NCBI GenBank assembly: GCA_043802485.1
Contig: JAZDKZ010000006.1
Span: 64,001 to 128,000, forward strand
Source of the DNA: Candidatus Aenigmatarchaeota archaeon
GTDB lineage: Archaea > Aenigmatarchaeota > Aenigmatarchaeia > Aenigmatarchaeales > Aenigmatarchaeaceae
DNA: 64,000 nt
Direction: 5' to 3'
The notes below the pieces were generated by a model that worked only from the letters and a program-made list of their open reading frames with translations, searched no databases and was not told where the DNA came from. The translations under genes and the position numbers were made by a program. Within the stretch, counting starts at the first letter, position 1. Every line of letters starts with the position of its first letter. This document shows positions 1 through 22,548 of the stretch, piece by piece.

Positions 1-1029
1 TACTCTTGCGATGACTACCAGTTCAAGCCGTACGGCGAGAAGGCCTACACAAAGCTCACAGGTTGCGGTCACAAGGGAGAGAGCGACATGAAGAACGGCA
101 AATTGCTATGGCGTGTCGAATGGGGGATGCTCTGGGCTCACTGGAAAATAAACTTGGAAGGCGCTGGCAAGGAGCATTTCATGCCGAGCGGTTCGTTCTG
201 GAGTGCTGGCGAGGTCGCTGAAAAGATATTCGGCTGGCCGGAGCCTTATCCTGGAAAGAACTACATACAGCCTTACGAGTATCTGACGATATCAGGCAAG
301 AAGATGTCTGCTTCTGTTGGCAATGTCGTTTCCACATGGGAATGGCCAACGTTCGCTCCGGCGCAGATACTCAGGATGATATTTCTGAAAAAGCCGAATC
401 GTGTGAGGGACTTTTCATATGAATATATTCCAAAGTACATGGACGAGTTCTACAGACTGCAGAGGATATATTTCGGCAAGGAGGAGGACGACAGGGAGGA
501 ATTCTCCAAGAGGCTCTATATGATGAGCGAGGTTTATGTGCCTGATAAGATGCCTGCGCAGATACCTTTTGAATATGCTGCCATGGTATCTCAAATGGTT
601 CCTGAGAAAAATTCTTTAGAAAAGGCTGTGCAGTTATTCAGGGCTACAGGTCATCTTGGCCAGGATTATGACGAAGCCAGAATCAAGAAGATTCTGAGCA
701 TGGCAAAGAACTGGTCTGACAGGTACGGAGGCGACAGCTACAAGATAAAACTTATGGAAGAGCCGTCAAGGGAATTTTTGGAAAATTTGAGCAGCGACCA
801 GAAGAAAGCGATAAAGATGCTGGCCGAAGCGCTTGCCGAAGACTTTTCAGAGAAAGAACTTTATAATAAGATTTTTGACATAATCAAGGAGACTGGCATA
901 AAATCAAAGGAGTTCTTTGGAGCAGTTTACAGCATCCTCTTAGGCAAGCCTTGGGGTCCCAGGCTAACTCCTTTCATATTGATAATCGGAAGAGAAAGAG
1001 TAAAAAATATTCTGGACAAGGTTCAATAG
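1..1029 (+). CDS. lysS: class I lysyl-tRNA synthetase (5' part outside window)
   Basis: Frame open from base 1; GKLLWRVEW, GAGKEH, KKMSASVGN (KMSKS-type) and C-terminal GPRL motifs. Confidence 0.95.
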   Translation, partial: YSCDDYQFKPYGEKAYTKLTGCGHKGESDMKNGKLLWRVEWGMLWAHWKINLEGAGKEHFMPSGSFWSAGEVAEKIFGWPEPYPGKNYIQPYEYLTISGKKMSASVGNVVSTWEWPTFAPAQILRMIFLKKPNRVRDFSYEYIPKYMDEFYRLQRIYFGKEEDDREEFSKRLYMMSEVYVPDKMPAQIPFEYAAMVSQMVPEKNSLEKAVQLFRATGHLGQDYDEARIKKILSMAKNWSDRYGGDSYKIKLMEEPSREFLENLSSDQKKAIKMLAEALAEDFSEKELYNKIFDIIKETGIKSKEFFGAVYSILLGKPWGPRLTPFILIIGRERVKNILDKVQ

Positions 1030-1748
1030 CCGAACCTTCTCTGCCGTCTGCTGTACTCTTTGACGCATCTTATGAGGTCCCTTTTGGTAAAGTCTGGCCA
1101 GCATTTTTTCATGACTATGAGCTCTGCGTAAGCGACCTGCCATGGCATGAAGCCGGATATCCTCTTCTCGCCTCCGGTCCTTATCAGCAGGTCTATGTCG
1201 TCCTTCACCAGCAGGTTGTCCTTTATCGTTTTTTCAGTGACTGTGACAACGCCTGTCTCCAAAGCTTTCTTGGCTATCTTCTTTACAGCCTGCGTGAGCT
1301 CGAACTTGCCGCCGTAGGCAACAAGAATATTGAAGACCCTTCTGTTGTACTTTTCAGTCTTTTTCATTATCTTGCCCATCACTTTTCTCAAACCCAAGGG
1401 CAGTTTTGTCAGGTCTCCGACAAACCGCATTCTTATCTCATACTTGTCCAGAAAGCTCTTCTTCTCGTTCTCTAGCTTTTCTAGCTCTTTCTGGAAAAGA
1501 CCTAGAAGGGCATTGACCTCCATTTTGGACCTGTTCAGGTTTTCAGTTGATAGGGCGAAAACAGAGACTTTGGGTATCTTCAAATCGACGCACCACTCGA
1601 ACAATTGCTCCAGCTTCTCAGCTCCGAAAGAATGCCCTTGCCAGGGCTTTAGGCTGTGCTTAAGGGCCCATCGTCTGTTAATGGGGTTTTACTAAACCTT
1701 TCCATCCAGGATGACGCCCAAGTGACTAGGTATTGCTGTTGCCTTCAA
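1023..1748 (-). CDS. uppS: cis-isoprenyl diphosphate synthase (UppS family); two exons, 1748-1700 and 1678-1023, 234 aa after splicing
   Basis: TTG start at 1748 behind GGGTGG; exon 1 reads MKATAIPSHLGVILDG, exon 2 reads NRRWA...GH..GA, followed by FALSTENLNR, AYGGK and DLLIRTGGEKRISGFMPWQ motifs. Confidence 0.92.
1679..1699 (-). other. candidate 21-nt bulge-helix-bulge intron in uppS mRNA
   Basis: RNA reads AUGG AA^A GGUUU AGUA AAACC CCAU UA^A CAG: 4-bp helix AUGG/CCAU, two 3-nt bulges, 5-bp intron stem; contains in-frame UAG UAA; canonical cuts give GAU GGA AAC AGA (DGNR). Confidence 0.88.
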
Positions 1749-2634
1749 ATAAATACCACCCTATTTTTGTTCTTTTCATTATGCCAGATTTGACTAATAT
1801 GTGCAAATAAAGCAATATAGTGTTTCTGTGCATTTTAACATTATATTTTTTCTCTATATAAGTTTTCAACTCCCTGAAATTCAGATTTTCAGGATACGAA
1901 CCTCTTAATTTGCTATAAAGCTCTTTCAAAATTGGCGCTTTGGCGTTAGCCCTTACAGGGAACAACTTAATTAGTTCTTCTATATCTGTTTTTCTATTTC
2001 CCCTGATTATTTCCAGTTTAGTCTTTTTAGGACCTTCAAGATTCTTCAAGAAGAAACCAAAAGATTTGCTATAGAAACCGTACTTCCATCTTTTCGACCA
2101 TCTTTCGAACTTTCTTTTGAAAAGCTTAACTCTGAGTTTGTTTTCCTTTAGAATATAGACCATTTGATCCCTTAGCTTCTTACTTATCGATGTAAATTCT
2201 ATTGTTCCGTCCAACTTCACAGAGCCGTCAAAAATCAATGCTGATGAAACAAATGATATCTTGTATTTATTGCCTCCCTTCATGATTTCTTCTGGTATTC
2301 TGACTATGCTCCCTTTCTTTCCATAGGGAAACCCTAGGCTGTGAAGGTATGGTATCAGATGTTTATTGCCTATTCTGAACCTAAAACCTCCCTTTAGAGG
2401 TTTTATTGAGCCTTTCTTACCTGTTATCTCCTTTACCCATTCCGAGATCAACTTTACATTCTCAAACCATTCATCCGTCAATTCGAAATAACTAGAATAA
2501 TAGTGGTGACCATTCCACATCTTTTTCTGCCTGTAAATAGTGCCGTCTGTGGCAAGGGCGCCGCACAGCTTGCATATCGTAATTCCTATATTTCCTTCAT
2601 GGATTTTAGAATTTGTAAGGGAAAAACCTTCCAT
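1726..2634 (-). CDS. free-standing double-motif LAGLIDADG endonuclease with C-terminal winged-helix-like region
   Basis: Motifs LCGALATDGTI and FVSSALIFDGSV; own start and stop; AT-rich; 3' end overlaps the uppS start. Confidence 0.8.
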   Translation of the reverse strand: MEGFSLTNSKIHEGNIGITICKLCGALATDGTIYRQKKMWNGHHYYSSYFELTDEWFENVKLISEWVKEITGKKGSIKPLKGGFRFRIGNKHLIPYLHSLGFPYGKKGSIVRIPEEIMKGGNKYKISFVSSALIFDGSVKLDGTIEFTSISKKLRDQMVYILKENKLRVKLFKRKFERWSKRWKYGFYSKSFGFFLKNLEGPKKTKLEIIRGNRKTDIEELIKLFPVRANAKAPILKELYSKLRGSYPENLNFRELKTYIEKKYNVKMHRNTILLYLHILVKSGIMKRTKIGWYLFEGNSNT

Positions 2635-2732
2635 GAGAACTTTATTACATTCTCTGCTTAAATCTGTTTTTCACCAGAATAATAAAGGAAATTAAAAAGT
2701 TAAAGTCGTTTTATTTAGAAAAGATAAGCCGT

Positions 2733-2951
2733 CTAGAACCTTCTTGGCTTTTTCTTTGCGAAACAATCTCTACAAAATACAGGCTTACCTTCGGTCGGCT
2801 TGAATGGAACTTCACATTCCTGGCCGCATTCCGAGCAAACAGCTTTGTGCATTTCTCTTGGACCCCTGTCGAAACTGGGTTTTCCTCTGTTAAAGCCGCC
2901 GCCACTTCCACCTCTGTCTCCGCCGAAGCGTCTGTCTCTATCGAATGGCAT
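2733..2951 (-). CDS. small CxxC-x17-CxxC zinc-ribbon protein with Gly/Arg-rich N-terminus
   Basis: REMHKAVCSECGQECEVPFKPTEGKPVFCRDCF. Confidence 0.9.
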   Translation of the reverse strand: MPFDRDRRFGGDRGGSGGGFNRGKPSFDRGPREMHKAVCSECGQECEVPFKPTEGKPVFCRDCFAKKKPRRF

Positions 2952-3085
2952 CTAATTCATTACTCCTTATTTAATATAAGAGTTGGTTGGTTTTGGGTCT
3001 TTATAAAGTTGATTTCTTGAGGGGTGGGGTTGAGCGAATATGAGATTTTTAAACGTATTTAAAATTTCGGTCAGAATTACATGCT

Positions 3086-22423: not shown

Positions 22424-22438
22424 GTTATCACAATGAAG

Positions 22439-22548
22439 TGGGGTTGCCAGGATTTGAACCTGGATCGGCTGGTTTCCTCTGTCATCTTTGGATCAAAGCT
22501 CCAAAAAATTGGAGCCAGCTATCTTAAACCTGGTTGGACGACAACCCC
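22439..22548 (-). tRNA. tRNA-Trp(CCA) with 35-nt intron at 37/38 (22474-22508)
   Basis: GGGGUUG/CAACCCC acceptor; GCUGG CU CCA A^intron^A CCAGC; relaxed BHB (CUCC/GAGG, one mismatch). Confidence 0.9.

What the first reader, a model, noticed from the sequence alone, without database searches (positions are those of the whole stretch)
1660..1748. Candidate tRNA-type (BHB) micro-intron inside the catalytic motif of protein-coding uppS
Seen: on the minus strand the gene reads ...HLGVILDG, then 21 extra nt encoding K-V-stop-stop-N-P-I, then NRRWA. The insertion splits the conserved UppS DGNRRWA substrate-binding motif. The RNA folds as GGGC-G-UCAUC-CUG-G[AUGG]AAA[GGUUU-AGUA-AAACC][CCAU]UAA-CAG-AC-GAUGG-GCCC. 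That gives a 4-bp helix between two 3-nt bulges, a 5-bp intron stem and an imperfect exon-exon duplex. Established: archaeal EndA cuts after the second nucleotide of each bulge. Here that removes exactly 1699-1679 and yields GAU GGA AAC AGA (D-G-N-R) and a 234-aa protein, whereas unspliced RNA gives an 18-aa peptide. The mRNA precedent I know is the crenarchaeal cbf5 intron; I know of none in uppS. Inference: production of the glycosyl-carrier lipid depends on the tRNA splicing machinery, and ORF callers would report such genes as 5'-truncated.
Basis: partly seen in the sequence, partly recalled or inferred. Interest (0 to 1): 0.95.

Follow-up and report, generated by a model that had tools for sequence, protein, structure and literature searches.

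The report
Spliced mini-intron in archaeal uppS gene
The only gene for the sugar-carrier-lipid enzyme UppS in this tiny groundwater archaeon is broken by 21 bases shaped like a tRNA intron, and related genomes carry such inserts at the same spot, often beside a homing-endonuclease gene.

Summary
Observation confirmed. On the minus strand uppS reads M..HLGVILDG, then 21 nt with TAG TAA in frame, then NRRWA.... The 21 nt (1699-1679) form a bulge-helix-bulge (BHB): 4-bp helix AUGG/CCAU, bulges AAA and UAA, 5-bp intron stem. Cutting after the second bulge base restores DGNRRWA and a 234-aa protein.

The fold alone is not significant (z -0.9). The comparative evidence is strong. At least 15 of 315 Aenigmatarchaeota genomes with uppS carry 13-52 nt inserts at three positions. 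In each of the 14 inserts tested, one frame-restoring register is the BHB one. Stems covary (84% paired against 22-45% when slid). The genome has one uppS, one EndA and one RtcB. No RNA data exist, so splicing is inferred.

New here: a LAGLIDADG homing-endonuclease gene lies directly upstream of uppS in 9 of the 15 intron-bearing genomes and in 0 of 27 intron-less controls. In this window it forms, with exon 1 and the intron, one 996-nt block absent from the nearest relatives. This suggests a mobile cassette whose intron shields the endonuclease target.

This scan noted similar introns in other genes on other DNA. My literature searches found only cbf5.

The parts
1700..1748 (-). uppS exon 1: TTG start (1748-1746), 16 codons MKATAIPSHLGVILDG, plus the first base (A, 1700) of the Asn codon
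   Evidence: relatives read M..H(L/I)G(V/I)ILDG|NRRWA without a break
1679..1699 (-). 21-nt BHB mini-intron with in-frame TAG TAA; cut sites lie between 1700|1699 and 1679|1678
   Evidence: the only register of 4 with H 4/4 and an intron stem of 5 bp
1675..1712 (-). BHB motif. Weak exon helix (CCUG.G / CAG). H 5' strand AUGG 1705-1702. Bulge 1 AAA 1701-1699. Intron stem GGUUU 1698-1694 with AAACC 1689-1685, loop AGUA. H 3' strand CCAU 1684-1681. Bulge 2 UAA 1680-1678. Exon CAG 1677-1675.
   Evidence: covariation across 12 genomes
1023..1678 (-). uppS exon 2 (AC of the Asn codon, then RRWA... to the stop at 1023-1025). Cis-prenyltransferase body.
   Evidence: Pfam PF01255 E 8e-67, positions 5-219 of 219; pN 0.10-0.15 against relatives with saturated pS
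1726..2634 (-). 302-aa free-standing LAGLIDADG homing-endonuclease-like gene with a winged-helix-like C-terminus. Its last 23 nt overlap the start of uppS.
   Evidence: Pfam LAGLIDADG_3 17 bits, below the 22.5 cut-off. Homolog in G046 scores 29.8 bits. Family profile hits the PI-PfuI endonuclease domain, 1dq3, E 4e-7. Both ..DG motifs are invariant.
1755..1760 (-). GGTGGT, a Shine-Dalgarno-like element 6 nt before the uppS TTG. It lies inside the endonuclease's conserved C-terminal G-W-Y codons.
   Evidence: read; the same arrangement is visible in G046 and G108 upstream sequences; function inferred
1680..2675 (-). 996-nt block (endonuclease gene + exon 1 + intron) with no DNA homology to genus mates. 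It replaces 86 nt in G003.
   Evidence: blastn: homology to G003 runs 1-1679 and resumes at 2676-3008. No endonuclease hit in G001-G003 loci or in 6 metagenome alleles.

Best explanation
The 21 nt at 1699-1679 are a genuine archaeal bulge-helix-bulge intron inside the coding sequence of the only uppS (cis-prenyltransferase) gene of this Aenigmatarchaeota genome.

Proposed mechanism. The pre-mRNA folds so that exon bases AUGG pair with intron bases CCAU, flanked by two 3-nt bulges. The tRNA-splicing endonuclease EndA cuts after the second base of each bulge. RtcB joins the exons to give ..GGA A|AC AGA.., which restores the catalytic DGNRRWA motif and a 234-aa enzyme. Unspliced mRNA yields only an 18-aa peptide. 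Synthesis of the polyprenyl carrier lipid would therefore depend on the tRNA-splicing enzymes.

Shown: the sequence, the geometry, the recurrence, the covariation, the single gene copy, and the presence of the enzymes.
Inferred: that cleavage and ligation actually occur.

Second, less certain layer (about 0.55). The intron travels with the LAGLIDADG homing-endonuclease gene that abuts uppS. The endonuclease would cut intron-less uppS at the conserved DGNRR-coding DNA. The intron would split that site and so protect its carrier. Repair of a cut allele would copy endonuclease gene, exon 1 and intron together.
For: (1) Recurrence. uppS is interrupted in 4 of 41 genomes of the order that have it. 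In the phylum it is interrupted in at least 15 of 315 genomes with uppS. There are three positions: DG|NRR in 13 genomes, ALI|PDG in 1, and GHxxGA|K in 4. Three genomes carry two inserts. Lengths run from 13 to 52 nt. 9 of the 14 inserts tabulated are not multiples of 3, so they cannot be translated through.
(2) Blind rule test. For each of 14 distinct inserts, exactly one of the 1-7 registers that restore the protein motif has BHB geometry. H is 4/4 in 11 and 3/4 in 3. Chance per case is 1e-6 to 1e-2, except G038 where it is about 1.
(3) Covariation on 12 site-1 sequences. 84.1% of cells are paired, against 21.6-45.1% with the partner slid by 1-3 columns. 6 pairs change on both sides. 0 of 500 shuffles reach the covariation score. 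H pair 2 reads C-G in 7, U-A in 3 and U-G in 1.
(4) A pattern that only the interrupted form can match hits 12 of 371 genomes, always in uppS. The backwards-read control hits 0.
(5) One uppS, one EndA and one RtcB in the 89%-complete genome. ARAGORN flags 22 of 44 tRNA genes as intron-bearing.
(6) No decay. Exon 2 is 218 codons with no stop. pN is 0.10-0.15 against relatives with synonymous sites saturated, lower than between two intron-less relatives at 0.17.
(7) The insert stands in contigs of two DNA runs.
(8) Endonuclease link. A LAGLIDADG gene lies directly upstream on the same strand in 9 of 15 intron-bearing genomes. These belong to three unrelated subfamilies, and one copy is decayed. 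The figure is 0 of 27 for intron-less loci with 1.5 kb of flank. Close homologs of the window's endonuclease occur in only 3 other genomes of 371, in two other families, each time directly upstream of uppS. The block boundary falls exactly at the intron's 3' edge. The five metagenome alleles that retain the junction (74-88% identical) have no intron, and none of the six loci fetched has an endonuclease hit.
Against: - No RNA evidence of any kind.
- The fold is no better than shuffled sequence (z -0.9 and -1.3).
- The MFE prefers a 5-bp helix with a 2-nt 3' bulge.
- The exon helix is weak: 72.9% paired, and one of its pairs is unpaired in 8 of 12 sequences. The motif is therefore 'relaxed'.
- EndA here has the alpha4 architecture of the M. 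jannaschii enzyme. That type was classically regarded as strict (PMC5829648, passages). Only a 7-residue insertion near the catalytic His hints at broader specificity.
- 3 of 14 inserts have an H mismatch, and the 13-nt G038 insert cannot be told from chance on structure alone.
- A genome-wide BHB plus ORF-joining scan showed no enrichment over a mirror-topology control (4795 against 5059), so no other split gene was found here.
- Against the cassette layer: 6 of 15 intron-bearing loci have no endonuclease gene. The genome's second LAGLIDADG ORF sits next to an uninterrupted gene. Endonuclease identity between families (50-52%) is no higher than uppS identity (46-51%), so recent transfer is not demonstrated. 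Related genomes are not independent samples.
Confidence: 0.82

Rival explanations
1. uppS is a pseudogene. The 21 nt are an insertion scar (for example from endonuclease-induced repair) that killed the gene, and the organism takes its carrier lipid from a host.
For: Tandem in-frame stops. DPANN genomes are reduced and host-dependent (general knowledge). 56 of 371 genomes of the phylum gave no uppS match. The fold energy is unremarkable.
Against: Exon 2 is intact over 218 codons with a full-length Pfam match, and pN is lower than between intron-less relatives. All 14 independent-looking inserts obey one geometric rule that restores the frame exactly, and their stems covary. A scar has no reason to do either. 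Start codon, SD-like element and exon 1 are retained.
Confidence: 0.07
2. The ribosome bypasses the insert (programmed hop, as in phage T4 gene 60) or reads through it, without RNA splicing.
For: A hairpin and a stop codon follow a Gly codon. In G038 a GGA take-off codon and a GGA landing codon exist (read). In G040 a GGU to GGA hop would keep the frame.
Against: The window's insert has no matching landing codon for GGA. The site-2 insert (take-off AUA) has no matching landing codon either (read). Hopping does not explain the 4-bp helix between two 3-nt bulges, or its covariation with the synonymous third base of the Asp codon.
Confidence: 0.03
3. Assembly or sequencing artefact.
For: The window is from a metagenome-assembled genome. 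The two supporting runs come from one study and may be the source data.
Against: Contigs assembled independently by Logan carry the insert with 0 differences. Comparable inserts exist in 14 other assemblies.
Confidence: 0.01
4. The intron is real, but the LAGLIDADG neighbour is not a mobile partner. It would be a domesticated DNA-binding regulator, or a chance neighbour inherited vertically and lost many times.
For: The protein has a winged-helix-like C-terminus (G123-type proteins have HTH domains). 6 of 15 intron loci lack it. No excess similarity of the endonuclease between families over uppS itself. The second LAGLIDADG ORF in this genome shows no such link.
Against: Three unrelated LAGLIDADG subfamilies sit at the same place next to the same interrupted site, against 0 of 27 controls. 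Distribution is patchy: 4 of 371 genomes across 3 families, with one copy decaying. Both acidic LAGLIDADG residues are invariant. The indel block ends at the intron.
Confidence: 0.3

Closest known systems
cbf5 pre-mRNA BHB intron of Crenarchaeota (Watanabe 2002 and Yoshinari 2006, seen only as references; Yokobori 2009, PMC2738675, search listing and abstract)
   Same: A BHB intron inside a protein-coding gene, presumably removed by the tRNA-splicing endonuclease and ligase. It is gained and lost among relatives.
   Different: Different gene (uppS) and different phylum (DPANN Aenigmatarchaeota). Much shorter inserts (13-52 nt). Three insertion sites, and up to two introns in one gene. EndA here is alpha4-like, whereas pre-mRNA splicing was linked to hetero-oligomeric EndA (title of Yoshinari 2006). 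An adjacent homing-endonuclease gene is present.
Archaeal tRNA and rRNA BHB introns, some rRNA introns carrying LAGLIDADG endonuclease genes inside them (I-DmoI type; recalled, not from a call)
   Same: Same RNA motif and the same enzymes. Same endonuclease family associated with intron mobility.
   Different: Here the endonuclease gene lies outside the intron, upstream of the host gene's start codon. The intron is too small to encode anything. The host is an mRNA.
Free-standing homing endonucleases with a protective intron in phages ('collaborative homing'; T4 mobE PMC2790892 and cyanophage F-CphI PMC6083498, search listing and abstracts only)
   Same: An endonuclease gene next to, not within, an intron-bearing gene. 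The intron is proposed to interrupt the target site. Endonuclease gene and intron are expected to co-convert.
   Different: In phages the intron is a self-splicing group I ribozyme and the endonucleases are HNH or Endo VII types. Here the intron depends on host tRNA-splicing enzymes and the endonuclease is LAGLIDADG. Cleavage specificity is untested here.
HAC1/XBP1 unconventional mRNA splicing (IRE1 + RtcB; PMC13149111, passages)
   Same: Protein-enzyme cleavage at two stem-loop sites in an mRNA, followed by RtcB-type ligation, changes the reading frame.
   Different: A different nuclease and a regulatory purpose. There is no evidence here that splicing is regulated.

Membership tests
Archaeal BHB intron (EndA/RtcB substrate) | Two 3-nt bulges on opposite strands separated by a 4-bp helix | tested here: met
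   AUGG/CCAU with bulges AAA and UAA. Caveat: the MFE draws 5 bp plus a 2-nt bulge through a G-U pair.
Archaeal BHB intron (EndA/RtcB substrate) | Flanking helices on both sides (strict hBHBh' form) | tested here: inconclusive
   Intron-side helix is 5 bp here and 89.8% paired across 12 genomes. Exon-side helix is weak, 72.9% paired, with one pair unpaired in 8 of 12. This is a relaxed form.
Archaeal BHB intron (EndA/RtcB substrate) | Cutting after the 2nd base of each bulge gives a functional product | tested here: met
   Restores DGNRRWA here. The BHB register is among the 1-7 motif-restoring registers in 14 of 14 distinct inserts. G106 and G117 read the same way by eye.
Archaeal BHB intron (EndA/RtcB substrate) | Structure conserved through compensatory change | tested here: met
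   6 pairs with changes on both sides. Covariation score 0.336 against 0.211 +/- 0.020, with 0 of 500 shuffles as high. Slid controls score 0.03-0.16.
Archaeal BHB intron (EndA/RtcB substrate) | Host encodes splicing endonuclease and RtcB ligase | tested here: met
   PF01974 E 1e-27 and PF01139 E 2e-173, one copy each. EndA is 182 aa with N- and C-terminal domains.
Archaeal BHB intron (EndA/RtcB substrate) | Spliced RNA junction or excised (circular) intron observed; cleavage by EndA in vitro | not testable with these tools
   No RNA run is listed for this sequence.
UppS / cis-prenyltransferase (PF01255) | Full-length family match including the N-terminal DGNRRWA substrate-binding motif | tested here: met
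   Exon 2 covers profile positions 5-219 of 219. Exon 1 supplies ..HLGVILDG. The motif is contiguous only after removal of 1699-1679.
LAGLIDADG homing endonuclease | Two LAGLIDADG motifs with acidic residues; homology to characterised enzymes | tested here: met
   ..GALATDG.. and ..SALIFDG.. are invariant in 3 homologs. The profile hits PI-PfuI 1dq3 at E 4e-7. The window protein alone is below Pfam's cut-off at 17.1 against 22.5 bits; the G046 homolog scores 29.8.
LAGLIDADG homing endonuclease | Site-specific DNA cleavage and mobility | not testable with these tools
   Indirect evidence only: patchy distribution (4 of 371 genomes in 3 families), an indel relative to genus mates, and one decayed copy.
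Free-standing endonuclease + protective intron ('collaborative homing') | Endonuclease gene adjacent to the intron-bearing gene and absent from intron-less alleles | tested here: met
   9 of 15 intron-bearing loci against 0 of 27 intron-less loci. 0 of 6 metagenome alleles, of which 3 had at least 550 nt upstream. Related genomes are not independent.
Free-standing endonuclease + protective intron ('collaborative homing') | The endonuclease's target spans the intron insertion site, and the intron prevents cleavage | not testable with these tools
   Needs a cleavage assay.
cbf5-type pre-mRNA splicing | Association with hetero-oligomeric (alpha-beta)2 EndA | tested here: inconclusive
   Only one PF01974 match was found, and it aligns end to end with the alpha4 enzyme 1a79. 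A divergent beta subunit, or one in the missing 11% of the genome, cannot be excluded. cbf5 itself is uninterrupted here.

The most novel reading that the evidence does not exclude
BHB mini-introns in archaeal protein genes are made and spread by selfish DNA. A free-standing LAGLIDADG endonuclease targets the DNA that encodes an invariant catalytic motif. A tiny hairpin that the host's tRNA-splicing enzymes can remove is the immunity patch that splits this target. Gene, exon 1 and intron then home together. After fixation the endonuclease gene decays (G065) and is lost (G118, G106, G117, G292), leaving orphan introns. This would be a live, enzyme-dependent route of intron gain in protein-coding genes of archaea. 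It would also make essential metabolism hostage to the tRNA-splicing machinery.
Probability: 0.5. Interest if true: 0.9.

Novelty: new variant of a known kind. Interest (0 to 1): 0.8.

Why it matters
1. In the papers I could search, archaeal mRNA splicing by the tRNA enzymes rests on one gene (cbf5) in one lineage. uppS in DPANN archaea adds an essential lipid-carrier enzyme, and an EndA of the supposedly strict alpha4 architecture.
2. Gene callers truncate such genes: here they give a 193-aa ORF lacking the catalytic motif. Metabolic reconstructions of DPANN genomes, often read as 'pathway missing', can therefore be wrong.
3. The tight link with homing-endonuclease genes gives a concrete, testable mechanism for how introns enter protein genes in archaea. 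It also offers natural material (intron-plus, intron-minus, endonuclease-decayed and orphan states) for studying the whole life cycle.
4. The three insertion sites and the 13-52 nt size range define the minimal substrate of a DPANN EndA.

Tried and rejected
- RNA evidence: no RNA holder is listed for window 1300-2300. Only DNA contigs could be laid.
- Genome-wide search for other split genes. A BHB motif plus an 'ORF-joining' test gave 4795 hits for the true topology and 5059 for a mirror topology. The test has no discriminating power and was dropped.
- Genes that this scan's earlier notes reported as split elsewhere are uninterrupted here: rtcB, cbf5, rnhB and kae1. metK (PF01941) was not found.
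- Internal replication. The genome's second LAGLIDADG ORF (C1, L101:1519-2466) is convergent with an uninterrupted Obg-like GTPase gene. No split neighbour was found.
- Ribosomal bypass: rejected, because matching take-off and landing codons exist in only 1-2 of the inserts (read).
- Fold significance of the motif alone: not significant.
- The MFE fold of the window's intron-bearing tRNA-Trp did not display its BHB, so I made no side-by-side comparison.
- Exon 1 co-conversion. Exon 1 is about 62% identical to G003 by my hand count, against 76% for the rest. With 48 nt this is too short to conclude anything.
- Excess similarity of the endonuclease between families, as a sign of transfer: none seen (50-52% against 46-51% for uppS).
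Full report
WHAT IS THERE.
The window is G000:C6:64001-128000 of a 769-kb, 7-contig, 89%-complete genome. Its nearest named relatives are Candidatus Aenigmatarchaeota MAGs. DNA runs that hold the sequence are labelled groundwater metagenomes.

On the minus strand a TTG at 1748, preceded by GGTGGT, opens MKATAIPSHLGVILDG. Then come 21 nt that read K V stop stop N P I. Then NRRWALKHS... continues for 218 codons to the stop at 1023-1025. The 218-aa piece matches Pfam Prenyltransf (PF01255) at positions 5-219 of 219, E 8e-67. Mechanical ORF listing gives only a 193-aa ORF from TTG 1604.

THE MOTIF.
Exon bases AUGG (1705-1702) pair with intron bases CCAU (1684-1681). Each is followed by a 3-nt bulge: AAA at 1701-1699 and UAA at 1680-1678. 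Between them GGUUU/AAACC forms a 5-bp stem with loop AGUA. This is the topology of the archaeal bulge-helix-bulge as it occurs in pre-tRNA, where each strand reads helix, 4-bp helix, 3-nt bulge, helix. That topology and the rule of cutting after the second bulge base are established knowledge that I recall; they do not come from a call. Applying the rule removes 1699-1679 and joins GGA A to AC AGA, giving D-G-N-R.

ViennaRNA returns this structure as the MFE, except that it pairs the spare G with the U of UAA (5 bp plus a 2-nt bulge). The energy is not better than shuffles: z is -0.91 for 89 nt and -1.27 for 51 nt. On its own the fold proves nothing. Empirically, a 4/4 helix plus a stem of at least 5 bp at spacing 21 occurs at 1.7e-4 of positions in this genome. 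That is about 7e-4 after allowing the four registers that would restore the protein.

IS IT IN THE DNA, AND IS THE GENE ALIVE?
Logan contigs of two runs from one study cover 1581-1900 with no difference and no gap. They may be the source sample.

The genome holds one PF01255 match, one EndA and one RtcB. EndA is 182 aa with both Pfam domains. It aligns end to end with the homotetrameric M. jannaschii enzyme 1a79 (E 6.5e-34) and has a 7-residue insertion before the catalytic His region. PMC5829648 (passages read) reports alpha4 EndAs with a C-terminal 'L3' loop in DPANN lineages, associated with disrupted tRNA genes. Whether this insertion is L3 was not established.

ARAGORN with intron search flags 22 of 44 tRNA genes (some calls are surely false). 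Rfam finds an intron-bearing tRNA in the window that default ARAGORN missed.

Exon 2 shows pN of 0.10-0.15 against five relatives, with synonymous sites saturated. That is lower than the 0.17 between two intron-less relatives. There is no sign of decay.

COMPARATIVE EVIDENCE.
In the order (42 genomes, 41 with uppS) I read the N-terminal region of every match. Seven close relatives (71-82% identical) and nearly all others read ..DG|NRR(W/F/Y/L)A without a break. G040 and G038 are interrupted at the same codon by 23 and 13 nt. G004 is interrupted 9 nt upstream by 31 nt.

In the phylum (371 genomes, 315 with uppS; 150 matches listed and 203 not) I fetched 16 loci flagged by short open frames or truncated matches. 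Eight of them were interrupted. G123 and G128 (identical to each other) and G135 each carry two inserts, at DG|NRR and at GHxxGA|K. G125 carries only the second. G118, G046, G108 and G292 carry the first. G065 also has a 20-nt site-1 insert.

A pattern that only an interrupted site 1 can match hit 12 of 371 genomes, always in uppS. It added G106 and G117. The pattern read backwards hit none. The total is at least 15 genomes. This is a lower bound, because other sites in unlisted matches were not inspected.

BLIND TEST OF THE RULE.
For each of 14 distinct inserts I enumerated every removal that restores the conserved peptide (1-7 registers each) and scored BHB geometry for each. In every case exactly one register stands out. 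H is 4/4 in 11 cases. It is 3/4 in G292, G040 and G038. An intron stem of 2-11 bp is present everywhere except in the 13-nt G038 insert. 9 of these 14 lengths are not multiples of three, so read-through cannot rescue them. Chance per case is 1e-6 to 1e-2. For G038 alone it is about 1.

COVARIATION.
The 12 site-1 sequences were aligned by MAFFT. G040 is misaligned and G038 is mostly gaps, and both were kept. 84.1% of cells pair at the proposed register, against 21.6-45.1% when the 3' partner is slid by 1-3 columns. Six pairs change on both sides. No shuffle of 500 reaches the covariation score (0.336 against 0.211 +/- 0.020).

The exon-side base of H pair 2 is the synonymous third position of the Asp codon. 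It covaries with the intron: C-G in 7, U-A in 3 and U-G in 1. The exon helix is the weak part, at 72.9% paired.

THE NEIGHBOUR.
The ORF that ends inside exon 1 (1726-2634, 302 aa) has two LAGLIDADG-type motifs. Pfam scores it below the cut-off. Its homolog in G046 is above the cut-off. A profile of three homologs hits the endonuclease domain of the PI-PfuI intein (1dq3, E 4e-7).

Close homologs (52-59% identical) exist in only 3 other genomes of 371: G046, G108, and G065 where the gene is broken into pieces with stops. They belong to two other families, and each lies directly upstream of an intron-bearing uppS.

The ORFs directly upstream of uppS in G123, G128, G135, G038 and G040 are also LAGLIDADG_3 proteins (44-57 bits). 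They belong to other subfamilies, and some have HTH domains. In total 9 of 15 intron-bearing genomes have such a gene. The six without are G004 (HTH_3 protein), G118 (PCMT), G292 (TraB-like, contig end), G125, G106 and G117.

As a control, 80 upstream ORFs from 29 loci of the order gave LAGLIDADG hits only in the two intron-bearing loci, so 0 of 27 intron-less loci.

Against the nearest genus mate, DNA homology runs from window position 1 to exactly 1679 and resumes at 2676 in a zinc-ribbon gene. So 996 nt here replace 86 nt there. Of six metagenome alleles 74-88% identical, the five that retain the junction read ILDG|NRRWA with an ATG start; L105 keeps only 5 nt upstream of it. None gives an endonuclease hit, and in three the zinc-ribbon gene lies directly upstream.

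INTERPRETATION.
The best reading is a real BHB intron that EndA and RtcB must remove for UppS to be made (confidence 0.82).

The second layer (about 0.55) is that endonuclease gene, exon 1 and intron form one mobile cassette in which the intron splits the endonuclease's target. This parallels the phage cases called collaborative homing (PMC2790892 and PMC6083498; search listing and abstracts only). G065 (decayed gene) and the six orphan introns fit the usual cycle of invasion, decay and loss of homing-endonuclease genes. That cycle is recalled knowledge.

The points against are listed in full in the Against line. The main ones are the absence of RNA data, a relaxed exon helix paired with an alpha4-type EndA, non-independence of related genomes, and no demonstrated transfer.

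WHAT IS KNOWN.
They covered BHB with protein-coding, DPANN, Aenigmarchaeota, homing endonuclease and undecaprenyl. The only protein-coding precedent they returned is the cbf5 work. A 2025 EndA structure paper (PMC12397907) cites only cbf5 papers for pre-mRNA splicing, and a 2026 review of non-canonical splicing (PMC13149111) names no archaeal mRNA intron in the passages read (passages read). Subscription journals and supplements were not searched.

This scan's own earlier notes (unchecked AI notes) describe similar mini-introns in rnhB, kae1, glyA, metK, rtcB and ahcY on other DNA, several beside homing-endonuclease genes. I had reached the endonuclease idea before reading them (note), and I tested it independently for uppS.

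VERDICT.
This is a real feature. It is a new gene and lineage for a known kind of intron, in a new arrangement with a free-standing endonuclease.

Noticed in passing
window 22438-22548 (-): tRNA-Trp (CCA) with a ~35-nt intron. Rfam and ARAGORN -i find it; default ARAGORN misses it. Genome-wide, ARAGORN -i flags 22 of 44 tRNA genes as intron-bearing, including implausible 180- and 454-nt calls.
   Followed up: partly
window 1726-1760 (-): The uppS TTG start lies 23 nt inside the endonuclease ORF. The SD-like GGTGGT is formed by the endonuclease's conserved G-W-Y codons. The same overlap is visible in G046 and G108, so the cassette appears to carry uppS's translation signals.
   Followed up: partly
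window ~1655-1679, run X3: A contig from a different study (a ~94%-identical strain) continues 24 letters past 1655 and ends exactly at the position equivalent to 1679, the intron/exon-2 boundary. A unitig break there could reflect intron-plus and intron-minus alleles in that sample.
   Followed up: no
L060/L061 (G123, G128) and L062 (G135): Two BHB inserts in one uppS gene, about 60 nt of exon apart (33+29 nt and 26+52 nt). Genus mates G126, G127 and G131 have none, and G125 has only the second.
   Followed up: partly
G000:C1:128018-128965 (L101:1519-2466, +): A second LAGLIDADG-like ORF (315 aa, weak TFIIE-alpha-like winged helix) in the same genome. It is convergent with an uninterrupted Obg-like GTPase gene. 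No split gene is adjacent.
   Followed up: yes
window 2733-2951 (-): 72-aa protein with an RGG-rich N-terminus and a CxxC...CxxC zinc ribbon. It is the conserved ancestral upstream neighbour of uppS in relatives (87-92% identical in G003, L106, L108, L109).
   Followed up: partly
L086 (G004) and L032 (G011), upstream of uppS: A 322/347-aa HTH_3 protein with a similar C-terminus sits upstream of uppS both in G004 (site-2 intron) and in G011 (no intron). No LAGLIDADG signal. Its nature is unknown.
   Followed up: no
G029:C49:13764-14432: A second, divergent uppS-like copy (30% identical) with one in-frame TAG.
   Followed up: no
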